DNA from: an archaeon
Lineage (GTDB): Archaea > Hydrothermarchaeota > Hydrothermarchaeia > Hydrothermarchaeales > BMS3B
Direction: 5' to 3'
Assembly (NCBI GenBank): GCA_026989875.1
Contig: JALSIP010000051.1
Span: 1,161-65,160, forward strand
DNA length: 64,000 nt
Shown here: positions 11,117-33,897 of the stretch, piece by piece
How positions within the stretch are numbered: position 1 is the first letter of the stretch
Layout of the letters: each line of letters begins with the position of its first letter
The notes under the pieces: generated by a model
Seen by the model: only the letters and a program-made list of their open reading frames with translations
The model's database searches: none
What the model was told of the DNA's origin: nothing
Translations under genes and position numbers: made by a program

Positions 11117-12560
11117 AGTGCTGGCGGAGCTTCTTCCGGAGATTCTGCTGATAGGTGCGGCGCTGCTGCTGGTGCTACTCCAGGGCTTCTGCGGCAGGGA
11201 TGCCTGCGCAAAGCTTTCTGGCTACATCTCCTTAGCCGCATGCGGGGGCGCGCTGCTGCTGGTGTCCCTGCACTCTGGAGCGGGTGTTGAGCGCGTGCTC
11301 ATCCCTGAGATAATAAAGCTGGACGCCTTCAGCCTGTTCTTCAAGCTTCTCTTCCTCACCCTGAGCTTCCTGGTGATTCTGGGGTCTCTTGATGCGGTGA
11401 AGCGCTACAGGATGGGCGGCGAGTACTACACCATGCTGCTCTTCACCACCTTCGGCATGCTCATAGCAAGCATGGCGGTTGACCTGGCGGTGCTCTACAT
11501 AGCCGTGGAGCTTGCCACCATCTCAACCTTTGCGCTCGCCGCCTTCAGAAAGGACCGCCAGGGAGCAGAGGCTGGTGTGAAGTACTTCGTGATAGGTGCG
11601 CTCTCCTCGGCGCTGGTGCTCTTCGGCATATCCCTGCTCTACGGCATCGCCGGGAGCACCTCCCTCACCGCCATAGCGGAGGCGCTCGGAAGCTCCTCCG
11701 GTCCGGTGGCAAGCCTGGCGGTGGTCTTCCTCATCGCAGGCTTCGGCTACAAGATTGCGGCGGTGCCCTTCCACATGTGGGCGCCGGACACCTACCAGGG
11801 TGCACCCTCCACCGTCACCGCCTTCCTGGCGGGAGCCACAAAGAAGATGGCGTTCCTGGCGCTCATGCGCATCTTCATCGTGGCGCTCCCCGGGCTGGTG
11901 GAGAGCTGGGCGATGCTGTTTGCGGTGCTCGCGGTGCTCACCATGACCGTAGGCAACCTGGTGGCGCTGGTGCAGAGCAACATAAAGCGCATGCTCGCCT
12001 ACTCCAGCGTTGCCCAGGCAGGCTACGTGCTTGTGGCCTTTGCGGTGCTCTCCTCAAAGGCTGACCTCACCCTCGCCGCGGGGGCGGCGCTGCTGCACAT
12101 GTTCGTGCACGCCATAATGAAGGGCGGCGCCTTCCTGGCGGTGGCGGCGGCGGGCTCGGCAATCGCCGGCAGGGATATCTCCGACTTTGCCGGGCTTGGC
12201 AGGCGCATGCCGGTGACAGCCTTCACCCTGAGCATATTCCTGCTCTCCCTGGCGGGGATACCCTTCTTTGCCGGCTTCGTGAGCAAGTTCCTGATACTCA
12301 TGGCGAGCGTGAGCGCTGGCGGTGCCTACATAGCCCTGGGCGTGCTCCTGGTAATAAACAGCGTCATCTCCCTCTACTACTATGCTAAGGTGATAAGGGT
12401 GATGTACTTTGAGGGAGGGGAGGTGCACAGAGCAGAGGAGCCCGTGATGCTGGTTGCGGCGCTGGTGGTCTCAGCGATAATCGTGCTCTACGTGGGCATC
12501 TTCCCGGAATCTGCAATACAGCTGGCGAAGAGCAGCGCAGCCTCCCTCTTCACCCCCTGA
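11109..12560 (+). CDS. nuoN: complex I-like antiporter-type subunit N
   Basis: 483 aa. NuoN/ND2 motifs (FHMWAPDTYQGAPSTVTAFLA). Confidence 0.85.
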   Translation: MAEVLAELLPEILLIGAALLLVLLQGFCGRDACAKLSGYISLAACGGALLLVSLHSGAGVERVLIPEIIKLDAFSLFFKLLFLTLSFLVILGSLDAVKRYRMGGEYYTMLLFTTFGMLIASMAVDLAVLYIAVELATISTFALAAFRKDRQGAEAGVKYFVIGALSSALVLFGISLLYGIAGSTSLTAIAEALGSSSGPVASLAVVFLIAGFGYKIAAVPFHMWAPDTYQGAPSTVTAFLAGATKKMAFLALMRIFIVALPGLVESWAMLFAVLAVLTMTVGNLVALVQSNIKRMLAYSSVAQAGYVLVAFAVLSSKADLTLAAGAALLHMFVHAIMKGGAFLAVAAAGSAIAGRDISDFAGLGRRMPVTAFTLSIFLLSLAGIPFFAGFVSKFLILMASVSAGGAYIALGVLLVINSVISLYYYAKVIRVMYFEGGEVHRAEEPVMLVAALVVSAIIVLYVGIFPESAIQLAKSSAASLFTP

Positions 12561-13113
12561 GCTTCAGCACCGCCCTGGCAAGCAGCCTCGCGGTCTTCAG
12601 GGGCTCGGGCACGGCACCCTGCAGGGTGAAGCGGTCCAGCAGCCTCTTCACCTCTTCCAGCTCCGCGCCCGCAAACCTCACGAACACCCTGTAGCCGGTG
12701 CCAAGCTCCACGCTCACCCTGCTGCCGAGCCTTCTGTAGGCGCTGAGCCTGCGCTCAGCCTGCTCCCGCTCTCTCAGGAACCTCTCAATCCCGGGGCTGT
12801 CCTCGTAGCTCACGCACACCACGGGCAGGGAGGTTGCAAGGTGGACCTCCTCAAGCTCAACGATGTTGAACATGCTAATTATGCATCCGTTGAGCATTAT
12901 TGCATTGATGTCCCTGCGTCCGAGCGACTCAAAAAGCTCAATCACCGCATCTGTGGCGTCCATGCCTCCGACGGTGACCTCGCCGAGGGCGAAGCCATCA
13001 ATCTGCAGGTCTGCCCGCATGACCACGCCTGCAAGTGCCGCCTTCTCTGAGTTCTTTCTGAAGCTCTCAGCCACTCCCAGCACCCTGATACCCGGCTTCA
13101 GCCTGAGGCGCAT
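12550..13113 (-). CDS. DUF99/UPF0215 family protein (putative nuclease-like)
   Basis: 187 aa. N-terminal KPGIRVLGVAESF and the central motif resemble the archaeal UPF0215 (DUF99) family. The start lies 47 nt inside the 3' end of rad50. Confidence 0.55.
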   Translation of the reverse strand: MRLRLKPGIRVLGVAESFRKNSEKAALAGVVMRADLQIDGFALGEVTVGGMDATDAVIELFESLGRRDINAIMLNGCIISMFNIVELEEVHLATSLPVVCVSYEDSPGIERFLREREQAERRLSAYRRLGSRVSVELGTGYRVFVRFAGAELEEVKRLLDRFTLQGAVPEPLKTARLLARAVLKLRG

Positions 13114-15448
13114 TCACCCGCACCCTTGACACTCCGTTTTTCTTCTCCACCACAATCAGCACATCCGCCGCCTGCTCAAACTCCCAGTCGTGGGTCACCA
13201 CCACGGTCTGGGGCACTGCTGAAAGCTTCCTCACCACCTCCACCAGCTCCTGCCTGCGCTGCACGTCCAGGTGCACCGTGGGCTCGTCCAGCATTATGAG
13301 CTCCATTGCACCCCCAGCAAGCGCTCTGGCTATGCCCAGCCTCAGCGCCAGGGCTAAGGCAACCCTCTCGCCGCCGCTCAGCATGTCAGTGCTCACCATG
13401 CCCAGAGGTCCGTAAAGGGTGACGCTCAGGTCGTCTGAGAGCATCAGCTCGGTGTAGGGCAGGTTGAACTCCTGAAAAATCTCCCGGGTGTGCTGCTCAA
13501 TCAGCGGCATGGCTGCTTCTCTGAGCTCCCTCTGCAGGCAGTCCCTGCTGAACGCCTGGCGAATCTCAGCCAGCAGCTCTATGAACCTCTCAAGTTTCCT
13601 CCTCTCTTCAGCCTTTGAGCGCAGCTCTCCCAGCCTCTCCTCCACCGCCTTCCTCTCCTCCTTCCTGCTGTTGAGCTCCCCCCTGCACTTCCAGATGCTT
13701 CTCTCCAGCTCCCTCAGGCTCCTCTCCGCCTTCTCGCACCTGCTCACAAGGGCGCTCCTGCTCCTCTCCGGCTCCTCGCCCAGCCTCTCCTTCACAGCTT
13801 CAAGCTCCCTCCTGAGGGCATCAGCCTCCCCGGCTAAGCGTTTCAGCCTGTGCTCAATCTCCCTCTTCCTGCCTCCGTAGCGCCTCAGGTACTCCTGGGC
13901 GCTCACGTACCTGCTGTGCGCCTCCTCAAGAGCCTCAATCTCAGCCTCAAGCTTTCTGCGCTGCTCCATCAGCCTCTCAAGCCCCCCGGTGTCTCTTCTG
14001 AGCCTTTCCGCCTCCTTCTCCATATCTTTCACTCTGGTGCTCAGGCTTTCAATCTCCTCAGTGAGCCTCTGAACCTCCTGCACACGGACGCTCATACCCG
14101 CAAGCCTCTTCTCCCGCCTTCTCAGGTACCTCTCCTCCTCCATGCAGCTCTCAAGCTTTCTCCTCCACCTCTCCTCCATCTCCTCAGCATCTCCAATCTT
14201 CTTCAGGTAGCCCTGCGTGAGCTCCTCACGCTTAGCCTCGTCAATCCTGCTCCAGCACAGGGGGCATCTGCTGCCCGCCTGCTCCAGCTCCCTCAGCCTC
14301 TCTGCCAGCTCCCTCTTCTTGGTGCGAGCCTCTGCCACCCTGCGCTCGCACTCCCCCTTCTCCTGCTCCAGCTCCCTCAGCCTCTCTGCCAGCTCCTCCA
14401 TTTTCCTCTCCGCAGCCTTTCTGAACCCTTCGGCGCTCTCCACCCTCACTCCCAGAGCCTCAGATGCCTCCCTCAGTATCCCCATCACCTCCTCCTGCTT
14501 GCGCAGCACATCACCCCTGTATCTCTTCGCATGCTCTTCAATGCTCACCATGCGCGACCTCTTCTCACCCAGCTCCCTTATTCTCGCATCCAGCTCCTTT
14601 GCCTGCTTCTCAGCCTCACGGAATCTGCGCTCCTCATCCTCAAGCCTCATGAGAGTCTGCTCGTACTCCCTTATTCTTCTCAGCTCCTCCTCAGCTCCTT
14701 TCGTCTCGGCTTCAGCCTTCTCAAGTCTCAGCTTCAGCCTGCAGCCTCTCTCTGCCAGCTCCCTCAGCGACCTCAGGGATTCAAGCTCCTCCTCAGCCTT
14801 CTGCTTCTGAGCCTCAAGCACTCTGAGCCTGTCCTCCATCGCCCTTATCTCCCTCCCCAGCACCTCTGCCTTCTTCTCCGCATTCTCAATCTCTCCGTCC
14901 ACCCACCCCAGCTCAGCCAGCTTAGACTCAAAAGCCCTGATAACCTCCCTCATTCTCTCGTAAGCCTGCTCAATACGCTCTATGCCCAGGAGCTTCGCGA
15001 GCATCCGCTTTCTCACCGCGGGGTCATCTGAAAGCAAGGCGTCAATCTCTCCCTGCTGGATGTAAACAGCGCTCTTGAACAGCTTTGCATTCATCCCCGT
15101 AAGCCTCTCAATCTCCTCCGTCACCCTCCTGTCCTGCTCCAGAATGCCACTGCCCTCGCAGTAAAGCCTGCTCCCGCTCCTCGTCCCCGAGCTTCTCACC
15201 ACCCTGTACCTCCTGCCACCGCACAGGAAGCTCACCGAAACCTCCATGCTCTCCTGTCCCCGTGTTATCAGCTCGGCTATGTTGACGCCCCTCGGCTTGT
15301 CCTTGAAGAGCGCAAAGCTTATCGCCTCCAGCAGCGAGCTCTTGCCCGAGCCGTTCTCTCCAACTATGACGCTTATCCCCTCACCCAGCCTGAGCACGGT
15401 GTCACGGTGGGATTTGAAGTTCCTCAGCCTGAGCTCCTCCACCATCAT
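13067..15448 (-). CDS. rad50: DNA double-strand break repair ATPase Rad50
   Basis: N-terminal Walker A (GENGSGKSS), a long coiled coil with a zinc hook CPLCWSRID, a C-terminal signature motif (LSGGER) and Walker B/D-loop (LIMLDEPTVHLD). The ATGA start overlaps the mre11 stop. Confidence 0.9.
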   Translation of the reverse strand: MMVEELRLRNFKSHRDTVLRLGEGISVIVGENGSGKSSLLEAISFALFKDKPRGVNIAELITRGQESMEVSVSFLCGGRRYRVVRSSGTRSGSRLYCEGSGILEQDRRVTEEIERLTGMNAKLFKSAVYIQQGEIDALLSDDPAVRKRMLAKLLGIERIEQAYERMREVIRAFESKLAELGWVDGEIENAEKKAEVLGREIRAMEDRLRVLEAQKQKAEEELESLRSLRELAERGCRLKLRLEKAEAETKGAEEELRRIREYEQTLMRLEDEERRFREAEKQAKELDARIRELGEKRSRMVSIEEHAKRYRGDVLRKQEEVMGILREASEALGVRVESAEGFRKAAERKMEELAERLRELEQEKGECERRVAEARTKKRELAERLRELEQAGSRCPLCWSRIDEAKREELTQGYLKKIGDAEEMEERWRRKLESCMEEERYLRRREKRLAGMSVRVQEVQRLTEEIESLSTRVKDMEKEAERLRRDTGGLERLMEQRRKLEAEIEALEEAHSRYVSAQEYLRRYGGRKREIEHRLKRLAGEADALRRELEAVKERLGEEPERSRSALVSRCEKAERSLRELERSIWKCRGELNSRKEERKAVEERLGELRSKAEERRKLERFIELLAEIRQAFSRDCLQRELREAAMPLIEQHTREIFQEFNLPYTELMLSDDLSVTLYGPLGMVSTDMLSGGERVALALALRLGIARALAGGAMELIMLDEPTVHLDVQRRQELVEVVRKLSAVPQTVVVTHDWEFEQAADVLIVVEKKNGVSRVRVNAPQAEAGYQGAGSG

Positions 15449-16560
15449 CTCCCACCACCCCACCTTCTGCTGAAGAACTCCTCCGCAACCTTTACCGCAT
15501 CCTCGGTTCTTCCATCCTCTAAGAGCCTCAGGAGCTCGGCGGCAAAGCTTCGCTCTGCCTCGCTGCGCTCCCTGAGGTAGCTGCCGAGAAGCTCGTAAAC
15601 GTCCAGCCCCTTAGCCGGCGACGCTCTCCGCTCTTCCTCCTGACTCAGTCTGCGCACATCCACATAAAGCACTCTGTCTGCAAGCCGCCTCATCACCTCC
15701 GAGTATAGCCTCTGAAAGCTCTCAGTCCTGCACTGCAGCTCAAGCCTCACCACGGGCTTGCCGTCGCCAGGCTCTGGAAGCGCCTCCAGCTCCTCTTCGG
15801 AGCTCACCCTGAGCTTCACAAACCTGCGCACGCTCCTGAGCTTCACCCACTCCACCTCCTCCGGCTCCTTCGCCTCTGTGTCAGCCAGGTAGAATCCCTT
15901 GCCCATCTTCTCGTACACTTCAATTTCGTCGCCTCTCCACACCTCAGTTGAGCCTGGATATGCCACGATTCCGCCGGCATAGCTGTCCAGCAGGGGCTTG
16001 TGCACGTGCCCCAGGGCGTAGTAGCTGAATCCCGCGGGCAGCTCGTTCATCCTGAGCTCGTAACCCACACCCAAGTAGCGGTCTATTCCCTGGTGGAGCA
16101 GGAGCACGCTTCTCCTGTGCCTCTCTGCCAGCTTCTCCAGCTCCGCCAGCCTCTCCAGCAGCACCCTGCTGTGGAGCTTTGAGAAGTAGGGCAGACCCGC
16201 TATCAGCACGTCTCCGTGCACCCTGGCGGGCTTTTTCGGTGTAAGAAACTCCATCTCGGGGTACAGCCTGTGGGGCGGCACAGCTCCGCTTCGCATCAGC
16301 AGGTCGTGGTTGCCGGCGATGCAGTAGAACTTTATGCCCTCTTCCCTCAGCCTCTCCAGCTCCTCCCGCACCACCACCAGCGCCTTGACATGGGGGCGGG
16401 GCTCGTCAAACAGGTCGCCGCTGTGCACCACAAACCTGCACCCCTCGTCTATTATCCTGTCAACTGCCTCGCGGAAACTCCTGTAGAAGTCCTCCTCCCG
16501 CTCGTCCAGGTTGTACTGCCTGTAGCCCAGGTGGGTGTCTGCAATGTGCGCAAACAGCAT
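15445..16560 (-). CDS. mre11: DNA repair nuclease Mre11 (calcineurin-like phosphoesterase)
   Basis: Phosphoesterase motifs I-V (HIADTHLG, HSGDLFD, GNHD, GHVH) and Mre11 length. It is directly upstream of rad50. Confidence 0.9.
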   Translation of the reverse strand: MLFAHIADTHLGYRQYNLDEREEDFYRSFREAVDRIIDEGCRFVVHSGDLFDEPRPHVKALVVVREELERLREEGIKFYCIAGNHDLLMRSGAVPPHRLYPEMEFLTPKKPARVHGDVLIAGLPYFSKLHSRVLLERLAELEKLAERHRRSVLLLHQGIDRYLGVGYELRMNELPAGFSYYALGHVHKPLLDSYAGGIVAYPGSTEVWRGDEIEVYEKMGKGFYLADTEAKEPEEVEWVKLRSVRRFVKLRVSSEEELEALPEPGDGKPVVRLELQCRTESFQRLYSEVMRRLADRVLYVDVRRLSQEEERRASPAKGLDVYELLGSYLRERSEAERSFAAELLRLLEDGRTEDAVKVAEEFFSRRWGGGR

Positions 16561-16571
16561 GAAGCTAAGCT

Positions 16572-17342
16572 TTACTCCGCGGAGGTATTAAGATTTTCCT
16601 GTACGAAGGTGGCGTTGGTTACGAGCACCCTGAAGACTGTGTGGTAGCCTATGTCCACGTTTCTCTCCACCACGCCCTCAGCGATGACAACCTCACCCTC
16701 CACCACGCCGGCGCTGCTGCTGGTGAAGATCAGCTCGCTTCCCTCCGGAGCGGAGGTGCCGTCCTGCAGGTGCACCCAGGTGAGGTTCATTATTCCCGGC
16801 AGCACCTTTGTTACAACACCCCTCACCCTCACCACCCTGCCCTCAAGGTCTCCAGCTTTCTGGAGAACCTCAGCCACGGTGTAGCCGTCTTCAAGCTTCG
16901 GGACGCTGGTGTTGAAGGGAAGCTCCTCAATCAGCGAGTCGCTCATCAGCATCACCTCAAGGGTTCTGTTCAGCGCCCCGGCAGAGAAGTCCAGCATCAC
17001 CAGAGCGCCGCTCAGGTTGAGGCGCATGCCCTCCTTAACCGCAGCCCTGGGTCCTGCCACCCAGATGCTGGCGTTCCCGTCTCCCAGCTTCACGTAGGTG
17101 TAGCCCCCTGCCTGAACCACCTGCTCAGCCACACCCGAGGTGCTCACGAGCGTGCCCTCAAGCGCCTGCCCCTGTGCCAGTATCTCGGCAATGCTCAGCT
17201 CCTGTATCTCCGGTGCTATGTCCTGAGCACCTCCGGGCATATTCATCTCGTCCTCAATGCTCAGGTACCTCACCGGCTTTTCAGAGCTCTGGGTGCAGGC
17301 TGAGGCGAGCAGCACGAGCACCAGCAGCATAAAGCCTCTCAA
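16572..17342 (-). CDS. exported (signal peptide/lipobox-like) protein with two tandem OB-fold (BOF/YgiW-like) domains and about seven N-glycosylation sequons
   Basis: N-terminal MRGFMLLVLVLLASAC signal. There are two repeats of the type V.E.L..G...G..V.V.G.V...L.....W..LqDGT. Sequons NAS, NLS, NRT, NTS, NLT, NAT and NTS are present. Confidence 0.55.
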   Translation of the reverse strand: MRGFMLLVLVLLASACTQSSEKPVRYLSIEDEMNMPGGAQDIAPEIQELSIAEILAQGQALEGTLVSTSGVAEQVVQAGGYTYVKLGDGNASIWVAGPRAAVKEGMRLNLSGALVMLDFSAGALNRTLEVMLMSDSLIEELPFNTSVPKLEDGYTVAEVLQKAGDLEGRVVRVRGVVTKVLPGIMNLTWVHLQDGTSAPEGSELIFTSSSAGVVEGEVVIAEGVVERNVDIGYHTVFRVLVTNATFVQENLNTSAE

Positions 17343-18049
17343 AGCTCCAGGTCCTCCTTGGAGTATATGGTGAATCTGCCGTCCTGGTAGAGCAGCGGGA
17401 AGTAGTGGGTGTCGTGATGGGTGGAGCGCATCTTTACCACGCCGATGTACCTCTCTAAGGAGGTCAGTATTCCTCCGCGGCGCTGGAAGAGCAGGTGTAT
17501 TATGCCGTCGCTGAGGAACTCCTCCACGCCGTGCTCGCCGTACCTTCCGCCCCCGGGAGGCATCTCGGATATCAGGAAAGCCGTGAAGTCAAGCTCGCTT
17601 AGCGCCCTGAAGAAGAAGTATATTTCAGCCCTGACGTTCCTGAGGGCGGTGAGGGTGTACATGGCATTCAGAGAGTCAATAACCAGGAGCTCATAACCCT
17701 TCTCCTCCTTTGCCTCGCTGAGATAGCCGGAAATTTTCTTTATCCAGTTCTCTCCGCGGTACCTCTTCATCCGCTCTCGTATGTCATCAAAGCTCACCAC
17801 GTCAACGGCATTCCTCTCCATCTCCAGCCTCTTCATCTGGGTCAGCAGGCTCACCGGGTCCTGCTCCAAGGTTATGTACAGCCCTGCGGCGTCGCTGTAA
17901 ACGGCGTTGTTGTAGAGAATGCTGTAGGCTAAGGAGGACTTCATCGTACCTGCGGTGCCGCAAATCAGAACAACGCTCTTTTTTGGTATGCCTCCCTCAA
18001 GGCGCTCATCCAGCCCCCTTACGAATGTTCTGACCCTCTCAACTTCCAT
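17339..18049 (-). CDS. KaiC/RadA-paralog (aRadC-like) ATPase with a degenerate Walker A
   Basis: The N-terminal motif FVRGLDERLEGGIPKKSVVLICGTAGTMKS is KaiC-like, but the P-loop is GTAGTMKS (Met replaces the conserved Gly). Walker B LLVIDSL is intact. ATGA overlap with the downstream exported-protein gene. Confidence 0.65.
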   Translation of the reverse strand: MEVERVRTFVRGLDERLEGGIPKKSVVLICGTAGTMKSSLAYSILYNNAVYSDAAGLYITLEQDPVSLLTQMKRLEMERNAVDVVSFDDIRERMKRYRGENWIKKISGYLSEAKEEKGYELLVIDSLNAMYTLTALRNVRAEIYFFFRALSELDFTAFLISEMPPGGGRYGEHGVEEFLSDGIIHLLFQRRGGILTSLERYIGVVKMRSTHHDTHYFPLLYQDGRFTIYSKEDLEL

Positions 18050-18078: not shown

Positions 18079-18297
18079 TTGTTAACGCAGAGGTAAAGAC
18101 GACTGTGGCGGGGTGTATGGTGGTGCATGCCGGGGATGCACTGACATTCTCTTCTCAGCACGTCAGCCCTTTATCACCAGCCCGCTCATACTCTTAGCGA
18201 GCACATGCACCACCCAGCCTGCCCTCACGCTTCAGCTTCTGATAGGCGAGCTTTGCTATTCCGCCGGCGATGTGCACCTCTGGCTTCTCCACCTCCC

Positions 18298-19140
18298 TTA
18301 CTTTTTCTTTATGTACTCCTCTAAGGGGGCGATTATCTCTATAACACCGAGCTCTGTGATTTCAAACACCCAGGTGCGTGAGTCGTGAGGCGCAAGGCGG
18401 CAGCCGTCTATGCGCAGGGTGCGCAGCACACTTCCTACAGGCAGGCGGTACAGCGACACATCCCAGCGGGTCTCAACAATCTTCTTGTCCAGCACTATGG
18501 TGCCGTCCAGGATGTGCGCCACCGCCAGGCCGCCTGCTGCCTCTGCGCTCTCGCTCGCCTGCGCAGAGCGTTTCTGGGAAACCAGCAGTGCCGTCTGGCG
18601 CCACCTTTTCAGAAAGCTGAAGAACTGCCTCACAATCTGCCTTGCCGCCACCTCCCTGTGCTCGTACAAGCCTGTGATGCTGTCTATCACCACGTTTGTA
18701 ATCTTCTTCTCTCTGATCGCATAGCCCATGGTGTCCAGCAGCGCCTTACTTGTTCTGAGCTCCTCGCTGGCTGAAGCATCTATAACCACCACATTCCTCT
18801 CCACCTGCGAGAAGTCTCTGCCCATAGCCTCGCTCTTCTGCTTCAGTGCCGTGTAGAGAAAGTTTGCGGGGCTCTCCACCGTAACGTAAAGCACCCTGTA
18901 GCCGGCGCCCGCCTGGGCGACGGCGAACTGCTCTGCAAGGATGCTCTTGCCGGTGTCGGGAATGCCCGTGACGTTGAGCACCGCTAAGTGGGGTATTCCT
19001 CCGAGAGGTTTTCGCCTGTAGCCTCCGTCAGTCTTCTCAATACTGAAGAATAGCTCATCCAGCCTGGTGCCCGTGGGTATTCCAAACAGCTTAGACGCCT
19101 CATCCCTGAGCTCCCCGAGGCTGAAGTACTCCCCCGCCAT
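18298..19140 (-). CDS. KaiC/RadA-paralog (aRadC-like) ATPase, canonical P-loop
   Basis: LDELF..GG.P...V.NVTGIPDTGKSILAEQF gives Walker A GIPDTGKS, and Walker B is VVIDSI. PF06745-like KaiC family. Confidence 0.7.
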   Translation of the reverse strand: MAGEYFSLGELRDEASKLFGIPTGTRLDELFFSIEKTDGGYRRKPLGGIPHLAVLNVTGIPDTGKSILAEQFAVAQAGAGYRVLYVTVESPANFLYTALKQKSEAMGRDFSQVERNVVVIDASASEELRTSKALLDTMGYAIREKKITNVVIDSITGLYEHREVAARQIVRQFFSFLKRWRQTALLVSQKRSAQASESAEAAGGLAVAHILDGTIVLDKKIVETRWDVSLYRLPVGSVLRTLRIDGCRLAPHDSRTWVFEITELGVIEIIAPLEEYIKKK

Positions 19141-22740: not shown

Positions 22741-24000
22741 GTGCCTGAAGCGTACCTGTACTTTGAGATGGGAGTTCTGGCATTGCTCTTCCTCCTATCA
22801 GCCTTTTTCTCAGGCTCCGAGACCGCATACCTTTCGGTGAGCAGAGCCAGGATCAGGAAGCTTGCCAGGGAGGGTGACTCAAGGGCGAAGGTGCTGGACA
22901 AACTGCTTGAGATGCCCAACAGGGTTATAATCACCATACTCATCGGCAACAACTTGGTGAACATTCTTGCAGCCTCCATCGCCACCTCCATTGCGATAAA
23001 GGCTTTTGGGAGCACCGGCGTGGGCATAGCCACAGGTGCGGTGACGCTGGTGGTGCTGCTGTTTGGCGAGATTACGCCCAAGAGCTACTCCGCAACGAAC
23101 GCAGAGCGGGTGGCACTGCTGGTGGCTAAGCCCATATACGTGCTCATGAAGCTGCTCACGCCGGTGGTGCTGGTGCTCTCCAGATTTGCAAAGTTCATAG
23201 TCAGCGCCTTCGGCGGCGAGGTGAGGCTCGGTCCATTCATAACCGAAGAAGAGCTCAAGATGCTCGTGGAGGTTGGGGAGGAGCTGGGTGCAATTGAGAA
23301 GGAAGAGAAGGAGATGATATCGGGGATTTTTGATTTTGACAAGATGGATGTTAAGGACATAATGGTTCCGAGGATTGATATGAAGTGCATTGAGGCGAAC
23401 AGCAGCATTGAGGATGCAAAGAAGCTGATACTTGAGACCGGGCACTCCAGGATACCTGTTTACGAGGGGAATGTTGACAACATCATAGGCATACTCTACG
23501 CCAAGGACCTGCTGAAGTTCCTGAATTCGGGAGAGAAGCCCGAGACCCTGCACGGCATCCTGAGACCTGCCCACTTTGTACCTGAGAGCAAGAAGCTGAA
23601 CGAGCTGCTGAACGAGTTCCAGAGGCTGAAGGTGCAGATAGCGATAGTTGTGGATGAGTACGGCGGCACCGCGGGCATGGTCACCTTAGAGGATGTGCTT
23701 GAGGAGATAGTGGGTGAGATAAAGGATGAGTACGACGTGGCTGAGGGGGAGGAGTTCACGATGATAGATGAGAACCAGGCGGTGGTGGATGCCAGGGTGA
23801 GCATTCACGAGGTTAACGAGAAGCTCATGCTTTCGCTGCCCGAGGACAGGGTTGACACCATAGGCGGGCTGCTCTTCAACCTGCTGGGCAGGATACCTGT
23901 GCAGGGGGAGGAGGTGGAGGTGGATGGGGTTGTTCTGAGGGTGGAGAGCATGAGGGGGAGAAGGATTATGAAGGTGAGGGTGATAAAGAAGGAGGCATGA
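22741..24000 (+). CDS. CorC/HlyC-family transporter (DUF21 membrane domain + 2 CBS + CorC_HlyC)
   Basis: Four N-terminal TM segments with GSETAY, a CBS pair, and a C-terminal transporter-associated domain. Confidence 0.8.
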   Translation: MPEAYLYFEMGVLALLFLLSAFFSGSETAYLSVSRARIRKLAREGDSRAKVLDKLLEMPNRVIITILIGNNLVNILAASIATSIAIKAFGSTGVGIATGAVTLVVLLFGEITPKSYSATNAERVALLVAKPIYVLMKLLTPVVLVLSRFAKFIVSAFGGEVRLGPFITEEELKMLVEVGEELGAIEKEEKEMISGIFDFDKMDVKDIMVPRIDMKCIEANSSIEDAKKLILETGHSRIPVYEGNVDNIIGILYAKDLLKFLNSGEKPETLHGILRPAHFVPESKKLNELLNEFQRLKVQIAIVVDEYGGTAGMVTLEDVLEEIVGEIKDEYDVAEGEEFTMIDENQAVVDARVSIHEVNEKLMLSLPEDRVDTIGGLLFNLLGRIPVQGEEVEVDGVVLRVESMRGRRIMKVRVIKKEA

Positions 24001-24932
24001 GGTTGCGCGTGCTCTTGGCGCTGCTTGCAGCCCTCGCCCTGCTCCCCCAGGTTAGCGCTGCCCCCGCGGACGTGGTGCTGGTGAGGAGCGACATCCCCCA
24101 CGAGTTTGCAATAGCGCTGGCTTACTCGCAGAGCACAGGCATACCCGTGGTTGCCACACCCCCTGAGAGGCTGAGCAGGGATGCTGAGGAGATGCTGGCC
24201 GGGTACATTGAGATGGGCTACAGGAGGCTGGTGATAATAGGCGGCGAGGAGGCGGTGAGCAGGGAGGTGCAGCGTCAGGTGGATGCCATGGGCTACATAA
24301 CCCGGAGGATCGGAGAGGCTGACCGCTACGGCACCGCCGCCACCTTCGCCAGGGAGTTCTATTCCTCGCCGGGGGGTGCGGTGCTGGTGTCAGGTGAAGG
24401 CTCATCAAGCCTGCTGACCGCGGTGAGGTTGAGCTCGGCTACAGGCTACCCCATACTGTACGTGAGACGCTCCGGTGTGCCGCCGGCGGTGCTGGAGGCG
24501 CTGAAAAGTCTGAAGGTCAGGAGGGTGCTGGTGATTGAGGGCGACCTGACAGAGGAGGCTCTGAAGCAGCTTGCGGGATACGAGCTCAGGGTGGTGAGAA
24601 GGGGTGAGGAGGTGGGTGGAGGGGACGCAACCAAGGCTTCCAGGCTGCTCGCCGCCTTTGTGCTGGGCGCGGCTTCGGCTGCGCTTGCCATGAGGCTGAG
24701 GAGGCGCAGGCAGAGGCTGCCCGCCGAGATTTTAAGCGAGGACGAGCTTGCTGTGGTGAGGGCGATGATGGAGAAGGGCGGCAGGATTACCCAGGACGTG
24801 CTTCCCGAGATCACGGGGTTCTCAAGACCCAAGGTGAGCAGAATCGTCAAGGAGCTGGTGGAGAGGGGAATAATTGAGAAGGTTCCCAGGGGAAGAACCC
24901 ACGAGCTGGCTCTGAGAAGGCAGTTTGATTAG
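23997..24932 (+). CDS. membrane-anchored putative transcription regulator: signal peptide + extracellular CWB2-like repeats + TM + cytoplasmic winged HTH
   Basis: Signal peptide MRLRVLLALLAALALLPQVSAA. Two cell-wall-binding-2-like repeats (VVLV..D...EFAIALAYS...GIPVV; GEADRYGTAATFA). TM segment LLAAFVLGAASAALAM followed by RLRRRRQR. C-terminal MarR/Lrp-like wHTH (ITQDVLPEITGFSRPKVSRIVKELVERGII). ATGA overlap with the corC-like gene. Confidence 0.6.
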   Translation: MRLRVLLALLAALALLPQVSAAPADVVLVRSDIPHEFAIALAYSQSTGIPVVATPPERLSRDAEEMLAGYIEMGYRRLVIIGGEEAVSREVQRQVDAMGYITRRIGEADRYGTAATFAREFYSSPGGAVLVSGEGSSSLLTAVRLSSATGYPILYVRRSGVPPAVLEALKSLKVRRVLVIEGDLTEEALKQLAGYELRVVRRGEEVGGGDATKASRLLAAFVLGAASAALAMRLRRRRQRLPAEILSEDELAVVRAMMEKGGRITQDVLPEITGFSRPKVSRIVKELVERGIIEKVPRGRTHELALRRQFD

Positions 24933-31741: not shown

Positions 31742-33025
31742 GTGCTGGCGGTGAAGTTTGTTTACCCTGACTTTCTCTCAGGCTATGCCTGGCTGCAGTT
31801 CGGCAGGCTTCGCCCGGTGCACGTCACCTTAGCTGCCTTCGGCTGGCTCTCCATGGTGCAGGTGGCAATGGCTTACTACGCCGTGCCCCGCCTTGCTAAG
31901 CGGGAGCTGTACAGCGAGAGGCTTGCAAGGCTGAGCGTGCTCCTCTGGAACCTCTTCATCCTCCTCGCCGCCGCAACGCTTCTTGCAGGAATGACGCAGG
32001 GCAGGGAGTATGCAGAGCTTGTCTATCCCCTTGACCTGCTCTTCCTGCTGCTTCTGGGCGTGGTTGCCTACAACCTGGTGCGCACGGTTCTGGCAAGGAG
32101 GGAGGAGAAGCTCTACGTCAGCCTCTGGTACTTCCTGGCGGCGCTGGTGTGGATGCCGGTGGTTTACTTTGTGGGCAACGCCATGTGGGCTGGAGGAGCG
32201 CTCTACGGTGTTAACGACGCCATAGTCAACTGGTTCTACGGGCACAACATCTTAGGGCTGTGGTTCACGCCCCTCGGCGTGGGTGCTGCCTACTACCTGC
32301 TGCCGAAGCTGGTGAGGAAGCCCCTCTACAGCCACAGGCTATCGCTTCTGGGCTTCTGGACGCTGGGGCTCTTCTACCCCTGGGTGGGTACCCACCACCT
32401 GATTTTCGGTCCCGTACCCGTGTGGGCGCAGACGGTTGCAATTGCCGCAAGCGTTGCCATGCTTCTGCCCGTGCTGGCGGTGACGGTGAACTTCTGGAAG
32501 ACCATTGAGGGCAGGTGGCACCTGCTCTCGCAGGCGGAGCAGGGCAGGCGCTTTGCCCAGAGCGACTGCACAGCTTTAAAGTTTCTGGTGCTGGGAGGAG
32601 TGTGGTACCTGCTCACCTGCCTGCAGGGTCCCTTCCAGGCGCTAAGGGCTGTGCAGCCGTATGTGCACTTCACCAACTGGGTTGTGGCACATGCCCACCT
32701 TGCCCTTCTTGGAGCCTTCAGCTTCTGGGGGTTTGCGTGCATCTACTACGTCATGCCCAGGCTGACCGGTAAAGAGCTCAGCCCGCGGCTTGCAAGGGCT
32801 CACTTCTACCTGCTCACCCTCGGCTTGAGCGGCTTCGTGGCGAGCCTCACCATAGCGGGGCTGATTCAGGGTAGCTCGTGGCAGGCGGGTGTGGCTTTCG
32901 TGAAGGTGGTGGCGGCGCTTAAGCCCTACCTAATCGTAAGGCTTGCCTCGGCGGCGCTCATGGTAGCCTCGGTTTATCTCTTCCTGTACGCCTTCTTCAG
33001 CTCGCTGCGGGGGGTGCAGAGGTGA
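31742..33025 (+). CDS. ccoN: cbb3-type (C-family) heme-copper oxidase catalytic subunit CcoN
   Basis: Ligand patterns are R..H...AAFGW (heme b His), WFYGHN (CuB His), GTHHLIFGP (CuB HH) and VVAHAHLALLG (heme b3/b His). Only 427 aa from the first canonical start. An in-frame upstream hydrophobic segment (31634-31741) would supply TM1. Confidence 0.8.
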   Translation: MLAVKFVYPDFLSGYAWLQFGRLRPVHVTLAAFGWLSMVQVAMAYYAVPRLAKRELYSERLARLSVLLWNLFILLAAATLLAGMTQGREYAELVYPLDLLFLLLLGVVAYNLVRTVLARREEKLYVSLWYFLAALVWMPVVYFVGNAMWAGGALYGVNDAIVNWFYGHNILGLWFTPLGVGAAYYLLPKLVRKPLYSHRLSLLGFWTLGLFYPWVGTHHLIFGPVPVWAQTVAIAASVAMLLPVLAVTVNFWKTIEGRWHLLSQAEQGRRFAQSDCTALKFLVLGGVWYLLTCLQGPFQALRAVQPYVHFTNWVVAHAHLALLGAFSFWGFACIYYVMPRLTGKELSPRLARAHFYLLTLGLSGFVASLTIAGLIQGSSWQAGVAFVKVVAALKPYLIVRLASAALMVASVYLFLYAFFSSLRGVQR

Positions 33026-33897
33026 GGGCGCTGAGCATAGCCGCTGGAGTGGCGGCGCTGGTGCTTGCCGCGATTGCCGTTACGGTGCTTTTACCCATGG
33101 GCGACCCCTCGCTGTACCAGCCGTCTCCAGGGGTGAAGCCCCTTAATGAGCTGGAGGAGATGGGAAGGCAGGTGTACATCCGGGAGGGATGCTGGTACTG
33201 CCACACCCAGCAGGTGCGCAACCTGAGCATGGATGTGCAGTACTACGGCAGGGTTTCCTCTCCCGGCGAGTACGCCTATGATTCGCCGGTGCTCCTGGGC
33301 ACGGAGCGCACAGGTCCTGATCTGGCGAGGATTGGCGGGGTTTACACCGACGACTGGCACTTAGCGCACTTCATCAACCCCCGCTACGTGGTGCCAGCTT
33401 CTATAATGCCCAGCTTCTCCTACCTGAGCGATGATGAGCTGGAGGCGCTTATCGCCTACGTGCAGAGCCTGGGCGGTGAGGAGGCGAGGAGAAAGGCTGA
33501 GATGCAGCGCAGGATGAAGCAGGCGATGCTGGAGGCGCAGCGCTTGGGCATAGAAGAGGAGATGATGCAGGCGAGGGTGCCGGCGAGCTACAGGGGGCTT
33601 GAGAATCCGCTGGCAGGCAGAGAGGCGGTGCTTGTGGGGAAGAGGCTGTTCGCCTTCTACTGCAGAGGCTGCCACGGCAGCGCTGGCGCTGGAGATGGTC
33701 CTGCTGCGAGGTACCTTAACCCCAGGCCTGCCAACTTCACCAGCGCGGAGTTCATGGGTAGCGTGGAGGACGGCAGGCTCTACTACTCCATACTGAACGG
33801 TGTGCCGGGCACGGCGATGCACCCCTTTAAAGCCAGGCTGACGGAGCAGGAGGTGTGGAGCTTAGTAGCCTACCTGCGCACGCTTCAGGAGGAGTGA
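33022..33897 (+). CDS. ccoO: cbb3 oxidase cytochrome c subunit: CcoO-like mono-heme domain fused to a second c-type heme domain (CcoP-like)
   Basis: N-terminal TM; GRQVYIREGCWYCHTQ; CcoO signature GTERTGPDLARIGG.Y.D.WH. A second CRGCHG heme site sits in a C-terminal cytochrome c domain. Confidence 0.8.
   Translation: MRALSIAAGVAALVLAAIAVTVLLPMGDPSLYQPSPGVKPLNELEEMGRQVYIREGCWYCHTQQVRNLSMDVQYYGRVSSPGEYAYDSPVLLGTERTGPDLARIGGVYTDDWHLAHFINPRYVVPASIMPSFSYLSDDELEALIAYVQSLGGEEARRKAEMQRRMKQAMLEAQRLGIEEEMMQARVPASYRGLENPLAGREAVLVGKRLFAFYCRGCHGSAGAGDGPAARYLNPRPANFTSAEFMGSVEDGRLYYSILNGVPGTAMHPFKARLTEQEVWSLVAYLRTLQEE

What the first reader, a model, noticed from the sequence alone, without database searches (positions are those of the whole stretch)
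16572..17342. Exported, heavily sequon-decorated tandem OB-fold protein embedded in the mre11-rad50 operon
The ORF has a clear signal peptide (lipobox-like LASAC). It has two BOF/YgiW-like OB-fold repeats. It has seven N-x-S/T sequons. It sits between an aRadC-like ATPase gene (ATGA overlap) and mre11 (11-nt gap). An extracellular OB-fold protein inside a DNA-break-repair operon is unexpected. It could indicate a DNA-uptake or competence link, or a surface receptor co-regulated with repair.
Basis: seen in the sequence. Interest (0 to 1): 0.6.

Follow-up and report, generated by a model that had tools for sequence, protein, structure and literature searches.

The report
Exported tandem OB-fold lipoprotein beside mre11
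This gene encodes a sugar-decorated surface protein from a large, unstudied and mostly bacterial family, and it lies next to the DNA-break-repair genes most probably because it was inserted there once in an ancestor, not because it takes part in repair.

Summary
ORF 16572-17342 (-) encodes a 256-aa protein with a signal peptide ending in a lipobox-type Cys16. It has two OB-fold barrels and seven N-x-S/T sequons. It overlaps a KaiC-like ATPase gene by 4 nt (TTGA, not ATGA) and ends 11 nt before mre11.

It is not a BOF/YgiW member by sequence. It belongs to an unnamed family with 4,036 50%-identity clusters at E<=1e-10, almost all of them bacterial signal-peptide proteins or lipoproteins. The archaeal members form one clade within Hydrothermarchaeota-like archaea.

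The link to mre11-rad50 is kept in two of three archaeal sublineages. However, the nearest relatives that lack the gene have DNA ligase and mre11-rad50 as direct divergent neighbours. The OB gene therefore looks like a single insertion into that intergenic region.

In the sister clade the gene is followed by a T-run, and mre11 keeps promoter-like elements. In the window a TATA-like box persists inside the last OB codons. No bacterial homologue examined is near repair genes, and the protein is acidic.

Most likely it is a surface ligand-binding lipoprotein whose link to repair is positional. Its ligand is unknown; there is a weak lead towards cytochrome c biogenesis.

The parts
16572..17342 (-). 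CDS of the exported tandem OB-fold protein (256 aa, TTG start)
   Evidence: ORF list. 56 homologues were found, the nearest at 70% identity. The profile finds 4,036 50%-identity clusters at E<=1e-10.
17295..17342 (-). Signal peptide ending in a lipobox-type Cys16 (MRGFMLLVLVLLASA|C)
   Evidence: The PS00013-type rule is met here and in all 7 archaeal homologues. It is the only such ORF among 57 in the window. Every archaeal homologue has a single Cys.
16938..17204 (-). Helix plus OB-fold domain 1 (residues 47-135). Invariant Y81-T82-Y83, W94, A96.
16593..16889 (-). Helix plus OB-fold domain 2 (residues 152-250). Invariant V177, W189, H191; near-invariant D194, G195, D230, G232, Y235.
16586..16598 (-). 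A/T-rich TATA/BRE-like element (GAAAATCTTAATA), 26-38 nt upstream of the mre11 ATG and lying inside OB codons E249-T253
   Evidence: An A/T-rich box sits at the same distance before mre11 in all 12 related loci, with or without the OB gene. It is conserved within the window clade. Promoter function is inferred, not shown.
17352..17357 (-). Shine-Dalgarno-like GGAGGA, 9 nt upstream of the TTG start, inside the 3' end of the ATPase gene
   Evidence: Read from the sequence. It is conserved in L001.
17339..18049 (-). KaiC-family (aRadC-like) ATPase gene; its stop overlaps the OB start by 4 nt
   Evidence: Pfam KaiC 1e-42. NCBIfam KaiC models match only below their cut-offs.
18298..19140 (-). Second KaiC-family ATPase gene (TIGR03878 thermo_KaiC_2)
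   Evidence: NCBIfam 384.8 bits against a cut-off of 232.
15445..16560 (-). mre11
   Evidence: Metallophos domain. NF041031 Mre11 4e-64, below its cut-off. Nearest named homologues are Ca. Pyrohabitans and Hydrothermarchaeales.
13067..15463 (-). rad50
   Evidence: SMC_N, Rad50 zinc hook and Rad50 NCBIfam models at 1e-91 to 9e-92.
12550..13113 (-). Endonuclease dU (PF01949) gene, overlapping the rad50 3' end by 47 nt
   Evidence: Pfam 7e-57. It is syntenic in L001, L003, L006 and L092.

Best explanation
What the protein is. The gene encodes a Sec-exported surface protein. It is probably anchored through a lipid-modified Cys16 and N-glycosylated at several of its seven sequons. It is built of two helix-plus-OB-fold modules. 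It is the archaeal branch of a large, unnamed, mainly bacterial family of periplasmic or lipoprotein tandem-OB proteins.

What it probably does (inferred). It binds an extracytoplasmic ligand on the usual OB binding faces. Those faces carry the family's invariant aromatic and His residues: Y-T-Y and W in domain 1, and W-x-H-L-x-D-G plus D-x-G-x-x-Y in domain 2. The ligand is unknown.

Why it sits next to mre11-rad50. The position is best explained by history. An ancestor of one Hydrothermarchaeota-like subclade acquired the gene, probably from bacteria. The gene landed in the divergent intergenic region between DNA ligase and mre11, upstream of mre11's own regulatory region.

What changed in the window's lineage. 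A deletion of about 100 bp removed the T-run and the conserved block that precede mre11 in the sister clade. The OB reading frame now runs into the mre11 TATA-like box, which leaves an 11-nt gap. A rearrangement also put KaiC-like ATPase genes upstream, with a 4-nt overlap. The gene is therefore probably translated from the ATPase transcript.

Shown versus inferred. Shown: the export signals, the fold, the family size and the comparative gene orders. Inferred: lipidation, glycosylation, promoter function, direction of transfer, and the lack of a functional tie to repair.
For: Export.
- The lipobox rule is met in all 8 archaeal sequences, each of which has a single Cys.
- 17 of 49 further hits carry a lipobox. 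The other N-termini printed mostly look like signal peptidase I-type signals by eye.
- Sequons are about 14-fold enriched, and none of 20,000 shuffles reached the observed count.
- Two sequons (N125, N144) are invariant in the archaeal sequences.
- A pentahaem cytochrome c in the sister clade uses the same LLLSGC lipobox, which shows the signal is used for exported proteins in this lineage.

Fold. Both domains are OB folds.

Family.
- There are 5,277 / 4,036 / 2,076 50%-identity clusters at E<=1e-3 / 1e-10 / 1e-30.
79 of the best 80 loci are bacterial, spanning more than 10 phyla.
- No Pfam, NCBIfam or PDB sequence match was found.
- The archaeal members are monophyletic in 100/100 NJ bootstraps.

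Insertion.
- The window clade has KaiC-KaiC-OB-mre11-rad50-EndoDU.
- The Pyrohabitans-like clade has ligase<>OB-mre11-rad50-DUF1786.
- The next-nearest mre11 loci (54, 51 and 46% identity) have ligase<>mre11-rad50 with nothing in between.

Independent signals.
- In the sister clade a T-run follows the OB stop.
- A conserved ACTTTTCC-N3-GCKCT block lies upstream of mre11. It is also present in L135, which lacks the OB gene.
- An A/T-rich box lies about 22-33 nt before the mre11 ATG in all 13 sequences compared, including the window.

No repair context elsewhere.
- Clustering of neighbours in 72 bacterial genome loci gave no SbcCD or competence cluster.
- tblastn with the window's Mre11 and Rad50 found nothing in the bacterial metagenome loci.
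- P0004, an archaeal member nested among the linked ones, is unlinked. It sits 13 nt after a class III signal-peptide (pilin-like) gene.

Charge. pI is 4.4-5.2, with both domains net negative.
Against: - The OB|mre11 adjacency is the only one shared within +/-8 kb between the two archaeal clades, whose Mre11 proteins are 57-59% identical. Such retention is often a sign of selection.
- In the window clade the genes are packed too tightly (4-nt overlap, 11-nt gap) for transcription of the OB gene not to read into mre11.
- DNA ligase, mre11 and rad50 all flank the gene, and the best fold matches are ssDNA binders (RPA32, Stn1).
- No ligand is identified, so 'binds something outside the cell' remains a weak mechanism.
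- Promoter and terminator calls rest on sequence motifs only.
- No dedicated signal-peptide predictor could be run.
Confidence: 0.6

Rival explanations
1. Functional coupling to repair. The surface OB lipoprotein captures extracellular DNA, possibly together with pilus-like structures. It is co-expressed with Mre11-Rad50 and DNA ligase so that imported DNA can be used for recombinational repair.
For: - OB|mre11 adjacency is kept in two of three archaeal sublineages although both flanks were rearranged.
- Packing in the window clade is tight.
- DNA ligase lies divergently upstream in the sister clade.
- The top fold matches are ssDNA-binding OB domains.
- The unlinked homologue P0004 lies 13 nt downstream of a class III signal (type IV pilin-like) gene.
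- Aromatic residues are conserved on the OB faces.
Against: - Both domains are acidic.
- None of the 72 bacterial genome loci clustered shows repair or competence genes as conserved neighbours, and no Mre11/Rad50 match was found in the bacterial metagenome loci.
- The closest mre11 loci do without the gene.
- The sister clade has its own T-run, and mre11 has promoter-like elements.
Confidence: 0.12
2. Envelope haem or cytochrome c role. The family is an extracytoplasmic accessory factor linked to System II cytochrome c maturation (ResB/CcsA) or to c-type cytochromes, for example as a haem- or apocytochrome-binding OB protein functionally analogous to CcmE. The archaeal copy would serve the c-type cytochromes of these archaea, and its place beside mre11 would be accidental.
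For: - CcsA (PF01578, 7e-53) lies directly upstream on the same strand in 5 loci, with ResB (PF05140) before it in several. These loci are from Elusimicrobiota and Bacteroidota.
- P0018 sits between a ResB-CcsA fusion and a CcmH-like TPR gene.
- A tetrahaem c554-type cytochrome lies directly upstream in 5 Bacteroidota loci.
- DsbD and a cytochrome c lie nearby in Sulfurimonas.
- 10 of 43 members give weak CcmE Pfam hits, best E 0.0038.
- His191 is invariant.
- The archaea concerned encode c-type cytochromes.
Against: - CXXCH-containing genes are no more frequent within 2 genes (7.6%) than farther away in the same loci (8.8%).
- Most loci show no such neighbour.
- The CcmE hits are far below threshold, and no HxxxY-type motif was seen by eye in alignment A1.
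- No ccsA or resB was found in any archaeal sequence held, though only 6-64 kb per genome was available.
Confidence: 0.2
3. Cytoplasmic ssDNA-binding partner of Mre11-Rad50. On this view the hydrophobic N-terminus is not a signal peptide, and the protein acts like an RPA- or SSB-type OB protein at DNA ends.
For: RPA32/Stn1-like fold matches and the operon position.
Against: - Signal-peptide architecture with a lipobox Cys is conserved across archaea and bacteria.
- Sequon enrichment is extreme, which only makes sense outside the cell.
- The protein is acidic.
- Bacterial neighbours are periplasmic functions.
Confidence: 0.03

Closest known systems
BOF / YgiW-YdeI family (Pfam PF04076, NCBIfam NF033674), the periplasmic 'bacterial OB-fold' stress proteins
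   Different: - There is no sequence relationship. PF04076 is not among the Pfam matches listed for the 43 members, and NF033674 hits 1/43 at E=0.06.
- This protein has two OB modules, each with an N-terminal helix.
- It carries its own invariant motifs (YTY...W; W-x-H-L-Q-D-G).
KPN03535 of Klebsiella pneumoniae (PDB 3f1z), a putative OB-fold lipoprotein (PMC2954213)
   Different: - It has a single domain.
- Its authors describe it as unique to K. pneumoniae (abstract shown).
- Neither the sequence nor the profile search of PDB detected it.
- Its proposed DNA binding is itself only a prediction.
CcmE, the periplasmic OB-fold haem chaperone of cytochrome c maturation System I (Pfam PF03100)
   Same: A membrane-anchored extracytoplasmic OB-fold protein. 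10 of 43 family members give weak CcmE hits. Some bacterial members sit next to cytochrome c biogenesis genes.
   Different: - The hits are far below threshold.
- This protein is a tandem rather than a single OB.
- No HxxxY-type haem-binding tail was seen by eye.
- The neighbours are System II (ResB/CcsA) genes, not System I.
RPA32 / Stn1 / aspartyl- and asparaginyl-tRNA synthetase anticodon-binding OB domains
   Different: - Sequence identity is only 13-19%.
- Those proteins are cytoplasmic or nuclear nucleic-acid binders.
- This protein is exported, sequon-rich and acidic.
Archaeal lipobox lipoproteins processed by AliA/AliB (PMC12462473)
   Same: An N-terminal signal ending in a lipobox Cys. 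That paper predicts lipoproteins to be prevalent in Euryarchaeota and DPANN.
   Different: - Position -3 is Ala here, not the L/V/I of the motif quoted in that paper. The sister clade has the canonical LSGC.
- Lipidation has been shown only in Haloferax volcanii.
- Whether this genome has AliA was not tested.

Membership tests
BOF / YgiW-YdeI (PF04076; NF033674) | Sequence match to the family model at its curated threshold | tested here: not met
   PF04076 is not among the Pfam matches of the query or the 25 most-matched families of 43 members at E<=1. NF033674 matched 1/43 at E=0.06.
BOF / YgiW-YdeI (PF04076; NF033674) | Single OB-fold domain behind a signal peptide | tested here: not met
   A signal peptide is present, but there are two OB modules. 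Some relatives have three.
OB-fold superfold | Five-stranded closed beta-barrel with OB topology, found twice | tested here: met
Prokaryotic lipobox lipoprotein (PROSITE PS00013/PS51257 rule, recalled from my own knowledge) | K/R in the first 7 residues; 6 uncharged residues; [LIVMFWSTAG]2-[LIVMFYSTAGCQ]-[AGS]-C with Cys at position 15-35 | tested here: met
   Cys16 passes the regex with its rules, as do all 7 archaeal homologues. It is the only one of the window's 57 ORFs to pass.
Prokaryotic lipobox lipoprotein | Canonical [L/V/I] at position -3 (motif as quoted in PMC12462473) | tested here: not met
   The window has A-S-A-C and P0002/P0003 have A-A-A-C. The sister clade has L-S-G-C. ASA|C also fits a signal peptidase I site.
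Prokaryotic lipobox lipoprotein | Thioether lipid on the Cys and cleavage before it | not testable with these tools
   This needs biochemistry (Triton X-114 partitioning, mass spectrometry).
Archaeal N-glycoprotein | N-x-S/T sequons on an exported polypeptide, beyond chance | tested here: met
   7 sequons from 10 Asn. None of 20,000 shuffles reached this count. The density is 14 times that of the window's ORFs. The closest homologues have 8.
Archaeal N-glycoprotein | Glycans actually attached; AglB present in the genome | not tested
   No AglB search was made, and only 64 kb of the genome is available. Occupancy needs glycoproteomics.
Archaeal Mre11-Rad50 (HerA-NurA) break-repair module | Co-oriented and tightly spaced with mre11-rad50 | tested here: met
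   The gap is 11 nt in the window and 9-10 nt by the called genes in its clade. It is 106-130 nt in the sister clade.
Archaeal Mre11-Rad50 (HerA-NurA) break-repair module | Presence beside mre11-rad50 across lineages that have the module | tested here: not met
   The gene is absent from the three next-closest mre11 loci, L135-L137. P0004 is unlinked. No bacterial homologue examined is near sbcCD.
Archaeal Mre11-Rad50 (HerA-NurA) break-repair module | Same cellular compartment as Mre11-Rad50 | tested here: not met
   The export signal and the sequon enrichment place it outside the membrane. This is prediction only.
CcmE haem chaperone (PF03100) | Match to PF03100 at threshold | tested here: not met
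   10 of 43 members gave weak hits, best E 0.0038. The query itself gave none.
ssDNA-binding OB proteins (RPA/SSB type) | Basic or aromatic binding cleft and nucleic-acid binding | tested here: inconclusive
   Conserved aromatics lie on beta2-beta3, but both domains are net negative with pI 4.6-4.8. Binding itself cannot be tested here.

The most novel reading that the evidence does not exclude
A horizontally acquired surface OB-fold lipoprotein has been captured into the mre11-rad50 transcription unit of Hydrothermarchaeota-like archaea. There it would act as the extracellular DNA-binding receptor of a DNA-uptake-for-repair pathway, perhaps with pilin-like proteins as in the P0004 locus. This would be a new kind of archaeal competence or repair coupling.
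Probability: 0.08. Interest if true: 0.8.

Novelty: new variant of a known kind. Interest (0 to 1): 0.4.

Why it matters
- The family is large (4,036 clusters at 50% identity with E<=1e-10). It is exported, has sharply conserved motifs, and has no Pfam or NCBIfam model and no sequence-detectable relative in the PDB. Naming it and finding its ligand would annotate thousands of 'hypothetical lipoproteins' in anaerobic and microaerophilic bacteria.
- The recurrent position next to ResB/CcsA gives a testable lead for a missing extracytoplasmic factor of System II cytochrome c maturation.
- For archaea, this is a clean example of a bacterial envelope gene inserted into a repair-gene promoter region and then absorbed into an operon. 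It is a caution against reading function from adjacency.
- If the repair link were real after all, it would point to an unknown DNA-uptake route in archaea.

Tried and rejected
- **PDB by sequence.** A single-sequence search gave only chance hits (E about 0.8). A profile search gave nothing.
- **NCBIfam.** The query and all 43 aligned members gave nothing meaningful.
- **AlphaFold-database fold search.** The library was not available.
- **Taxon names from cluster members.** None were given. Taxonomy was instead inferred from named Mre11 homologues and from the Ca. Pyrohabitans title.
- **Haem-motif enrichment next to bacterial homologues.** There was no difference between near and far genes. 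The cytochrome lead therefore rests only on the ResB/CcsA adjacency.
- **Internal repeat by sequence.** It is only marginal. The tandem claim rests on structure.
- **Unusually conserved DNA at the OB 3' end in the window clade.** It is conserved (0.8-0.9), but other parts of the gene are equally conserved. This gives no independent support for a dual constraint.
- **ccsA/resB in the archaeal loci held.** None were found.
- **The conserved mre11-upstream block in the window.** It is absent.
- **Rfam and tRNA scans.** Only two tRNAs were found, which do not bear on the finding.
- **Literature searches.** Searches for the family, for OB-fold partners of CcsBA and for Hydrothermarchaeota mre11 returned nothing on this protein.
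- **First NJ script.** It timed out and was rerun with a faster distance routine.
- **The sigma-70 promoter/terminator scanner.** It was not used, because it does not cover archaeal promoters.

Full report

The ORF at 16572..17342 on the minus strand encodes 256 residues. It lies between a KaiC-family ATPase gene (17339..18049; Pfam KaiC 1e-42) and mre11 (15445..16560). These are followed by rad50 (13067..15463) and an endonuclease dU gene (12550..13113). A second KaiC-family gene (18298..19140; TIGR03878 above its cut-off) lies further upstream.

The gap to mre11 is 11 nt. The start is TTG within a TTGA overlap with the ATPase stop, not ATGA. The same TTG and a GGAGGA 9 nt upstream are conserved in relative L001.

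The N-terminus MRGFMLLVLVLLASAC has a basic residue and a hydrophobic core (mean Kyte-Doolittle 2.9). Cys16 meets the PROSITE-type lipobox rule. This is the only one of 57 crude ORFs in the window that does so. Position -3 is Ala, so cleavage by signal peptidase I after A-S-A is an alternative. Either way the protein is exported.

Seven of its ten Asn residues sit in N-x-S/T sequons. That is 2.73 per 100 residues against 0.19 for the window's ORFs, and none of 20,000 shuffles reached seven.

**2. Fold**

An AlphaFold2 model built on 43 sequences has pLDDT 86.8. It shows two five-stranded barrels (residues 65-133 and 170-249), each preceded by a short helix.

By sequence the two halves are only marginally alike. 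Pfam offers only sub-threshold hits (tRNA_anti-codon, GW, DUF5818, CcmE). The BOF/YgiW models do not match. The 'BOF/YgiW-like' label is therefore a resemblance in fold and location, not family membership.

**3. The family**

A word-indexed search found 56 relatives. A full profile search found 5,277 50%-identity clusters at E<=1e-3 and 4,036 at E<=1e-10. Some have three OB stretches.

Of the best 80 loci, 79 are bacterial. They include Campylobacterota, Desulfobacterota, Bacteroidota, Elusimicrobiota, Nitrospirota, Myxococcota, Planctomycetota and Betaproteobacteria.

Of the further hits, 17 of 49 carry a lipobox. Most of the remaining N-termini printed look like ordinary signal peptides by eye.

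The invariant positions are Y81, T82, Y83, W94 and A96 in domain 1, and V177, W189 and H191 in domain 2. Near-invariant are D194, G195, D230, G232 and Y235. These lie on strands 2-3 and loop 4-5, the usual OB binding face.

No Pfam or NCBIfam model covers the family, PDB sequence and profile searches found no relative, and the literature searches found no paper on it.

**4. The archaeal branch and its neighbours**

The archaeal sequences form one clade in 100/100 NJ bootstraps. It has two arms: the window with P0002/P0003 (about 70% identity), and P0004 with P0005-P0007 (42-43%). All have a single Cys in a lipobox, and two sequons are invariant.

The nearest named Mre11 homologues of the window are Ca. 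Pyrohabitans, Hydrothermarchaeaceae and Hydrothermarchaeales. One locus is titled Ca. Pyrohabitans sp. JdFR-17. The window therefore comes from a Hydrothermarchaeota-like archaeon.

The gene orders are:
- Window clade: KaiC-(HTH gene)-KaiC-OB-mre11-rad50-EndoDU.
- Pyrohabitans-like clade, several distinct contigs: ABC2 transporter and DNA ligase on the opposite strand, then OB-mre11-rad50 with a 106-130 nt gap, then DUF1786.
- P0004: unlinked, 13 nt after a class III signal-peptide gene.

The linkage is thus conserved in relatives, and it is the only adjacency shared within +/-8 kb.

**5. Why I read the linkage as historical**

The next-closest mre11 loci (54, 51 and 46% identity) show DNA ligase and mre11-rad50 as direct divergent neighbours, 112-241 nt apart, with no OB gene. 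The Pyrohabitans-like arrangement is exactly this, plus the OB gene dropped between the ligase and mre11's upstream region.

In that clade the OB stop is followed by an oligo-T run. Next comes a conserved block, ACTTTTCC-N3-GCKCT, which also occurs upstream of mre11 in L135, a locus without the OB gene.

All 13 sequences compared have an A/T-rich box about 22-33 nt before the mre11 ATG. That position fits an archaeal TATA box for a leaderless or short-leader mRNA; this is my inference from general knowledge of archaeal promoters.

In the window clade the T-run and the conserved block are gone. The A/T-rich box survives as the codons E-N-L-N-T-S of a C-terminal extension of the OB protein. One of the seven sequons is therefore encoded by this A/T-rich box.

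GC and GC3 of the OB gene equal those of its neighbours, so the acquisition is not recent.

The simplest history is one acquisition, one insertion, one later relocation (P0004), and one compaction and rearrangement in the window clade.

**6. What does it do?**

Evidence against DNA binding:
- The archaeal proteins have pI 4.4-5.2, with both domains net negative.
- The neighbours of bacterial homologues are envelope functions, with no repair or competence genes among them.

The only association that crosses phyla is with System II cytochrome c biogenesis:
- CcsA lies immediately upstream on the same strand in five loci of Elusimicrobiota and Bacteroidota, often preceded by ResB.
- One homologue sits between a ResB-CcsA fusion and a CcmH-like TPR gene.
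- Tetrahaem cytochromes lie upstream in Bacteroidota.

However, haem-motif genes are not enriched next to the gene relative to the rest of each locus, and most loci lack these neighbours. The archaea concerned do encode c-type cytochromes. One is a pentahaem lipoprotein with the same LLLSGC lipobox, 5 kb from the OB gene in the sister clade.

I therefore commit to a surface-anchored, glycosylated ligand-binding protein of the cell envelope that is not part of break repair (confidence about 0.6). A haem or cytochrome-related ligand is the best specific guess (about 0.2). The DNA-capture idea is a minority possibility (about 0.1).

**7. Comparison and novelty**

In location and fold it resembles BOF/YgiW proteins, KPN03535 and CcmE. 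It is a member of none of them by sequence. It differs in being a tandem of helix-plus-OB modules with its own motifs. I rate it a new variant of a known kind, namely exported OB-fold lipoproteins.

The embedding in the mre11-rad50 string is real but is best explained by insertion and inheritance. Interest is moderate. The family deserves a name and a ligand, and the locus is an instructive case of adjacency without shared function. The surprising reading is not supported.

Noticed in passing
window 18212-18295 (-), in the 248-nt spacer between the two KaiC-like genes: This is a remnant (28 aa, 79% identical) of a 200-aa HTH-like gene. The gene is intact between the two KaiC genes in relatives L001, L003 and L006, and has been largely deleted in the window.
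   Followed up: partly
L007 8803-8818, L009 4186-4201, L097 1370-1385, L135 4906-4921 (upstream of mre11): A conserved block ACTTTTCC-N3-GCKCT, followed in the Pyrohabitans-like clade by GTGCATATGCTCCACAGGAAGA, lies upstream of mre11. It is present both with and without the OB gene. It may be an operator or leader element, and it is absent from the window.
   Followed up: partly
L135-L137 and L007/L009/L096/L098: In Hydrothermarchaeales-like contigs the ATP-dependent DNA ligase is the divergent neighbour of mre11-rad50. NurA-HerA lie a few kb beyond it, and one contig also has Ku plus LigD-type primase/ligase downstream. Together these form a repair-gene neighbourhood.
   Followed up: no
window 12550-13113 (-): An endonuclease dU (PF01949) gene overlaps the 3' end of rad50 by 47 nt. 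It is syntenic in the window clade only, so it appears to be an extra repair-type gene fused onto the operon.
   Followed up: no
window 33022-33897 (+): This 291-aa ORF has an N-terminal hydrophobic segment, two CXXCH haem-binding motifs and two sequons. It is a candidate membrane-anchored dihaem c-type cytochrome in an archaeon.
   Followed up: no
L007 2134-2673, L093 69-617, L098 105-713: A pentahaem (5 CXXCH) protein of about 180 aa carries a canonical LLLSGC lipobox, about 5 kb upstream of the OB gene in the Pyrohabitans-like clade. It would be an archaeal cytochrome c lipoprotein.
   Followed up: no
L004 7802-7987: A 61-aa class III signal-peptide (type IV pilin-like) gene lies 13 nt upstream of the only archaeal family member that is not next to mre11.
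   Followed up: partly
L012, L016, L033, L055, L058 and the P0018 contig: Bacterial family members lie directly downstream of ResB/CcsA (System II cytochrome c biogenesis) in at least two phyla.
   Followed up: partly
P0188-P0216: Many top-scoring family members are 320-450 aa with two or three matched stretches. This suggests versions with three OB modules or with extra N-terminal domains.
   Followed up: no
window 23997-24932 (+): This ORF has a clear signal peptide (MRLRVLLALLAALALLPQVSAAP). Its relatives in L001 and L006 carry weak cell-wall-binding (CW_binding_2) and MarR/TrmB-type HTH Pfam hits. That is an odd mix of exported and DNA-binding features.
   Followed up: no
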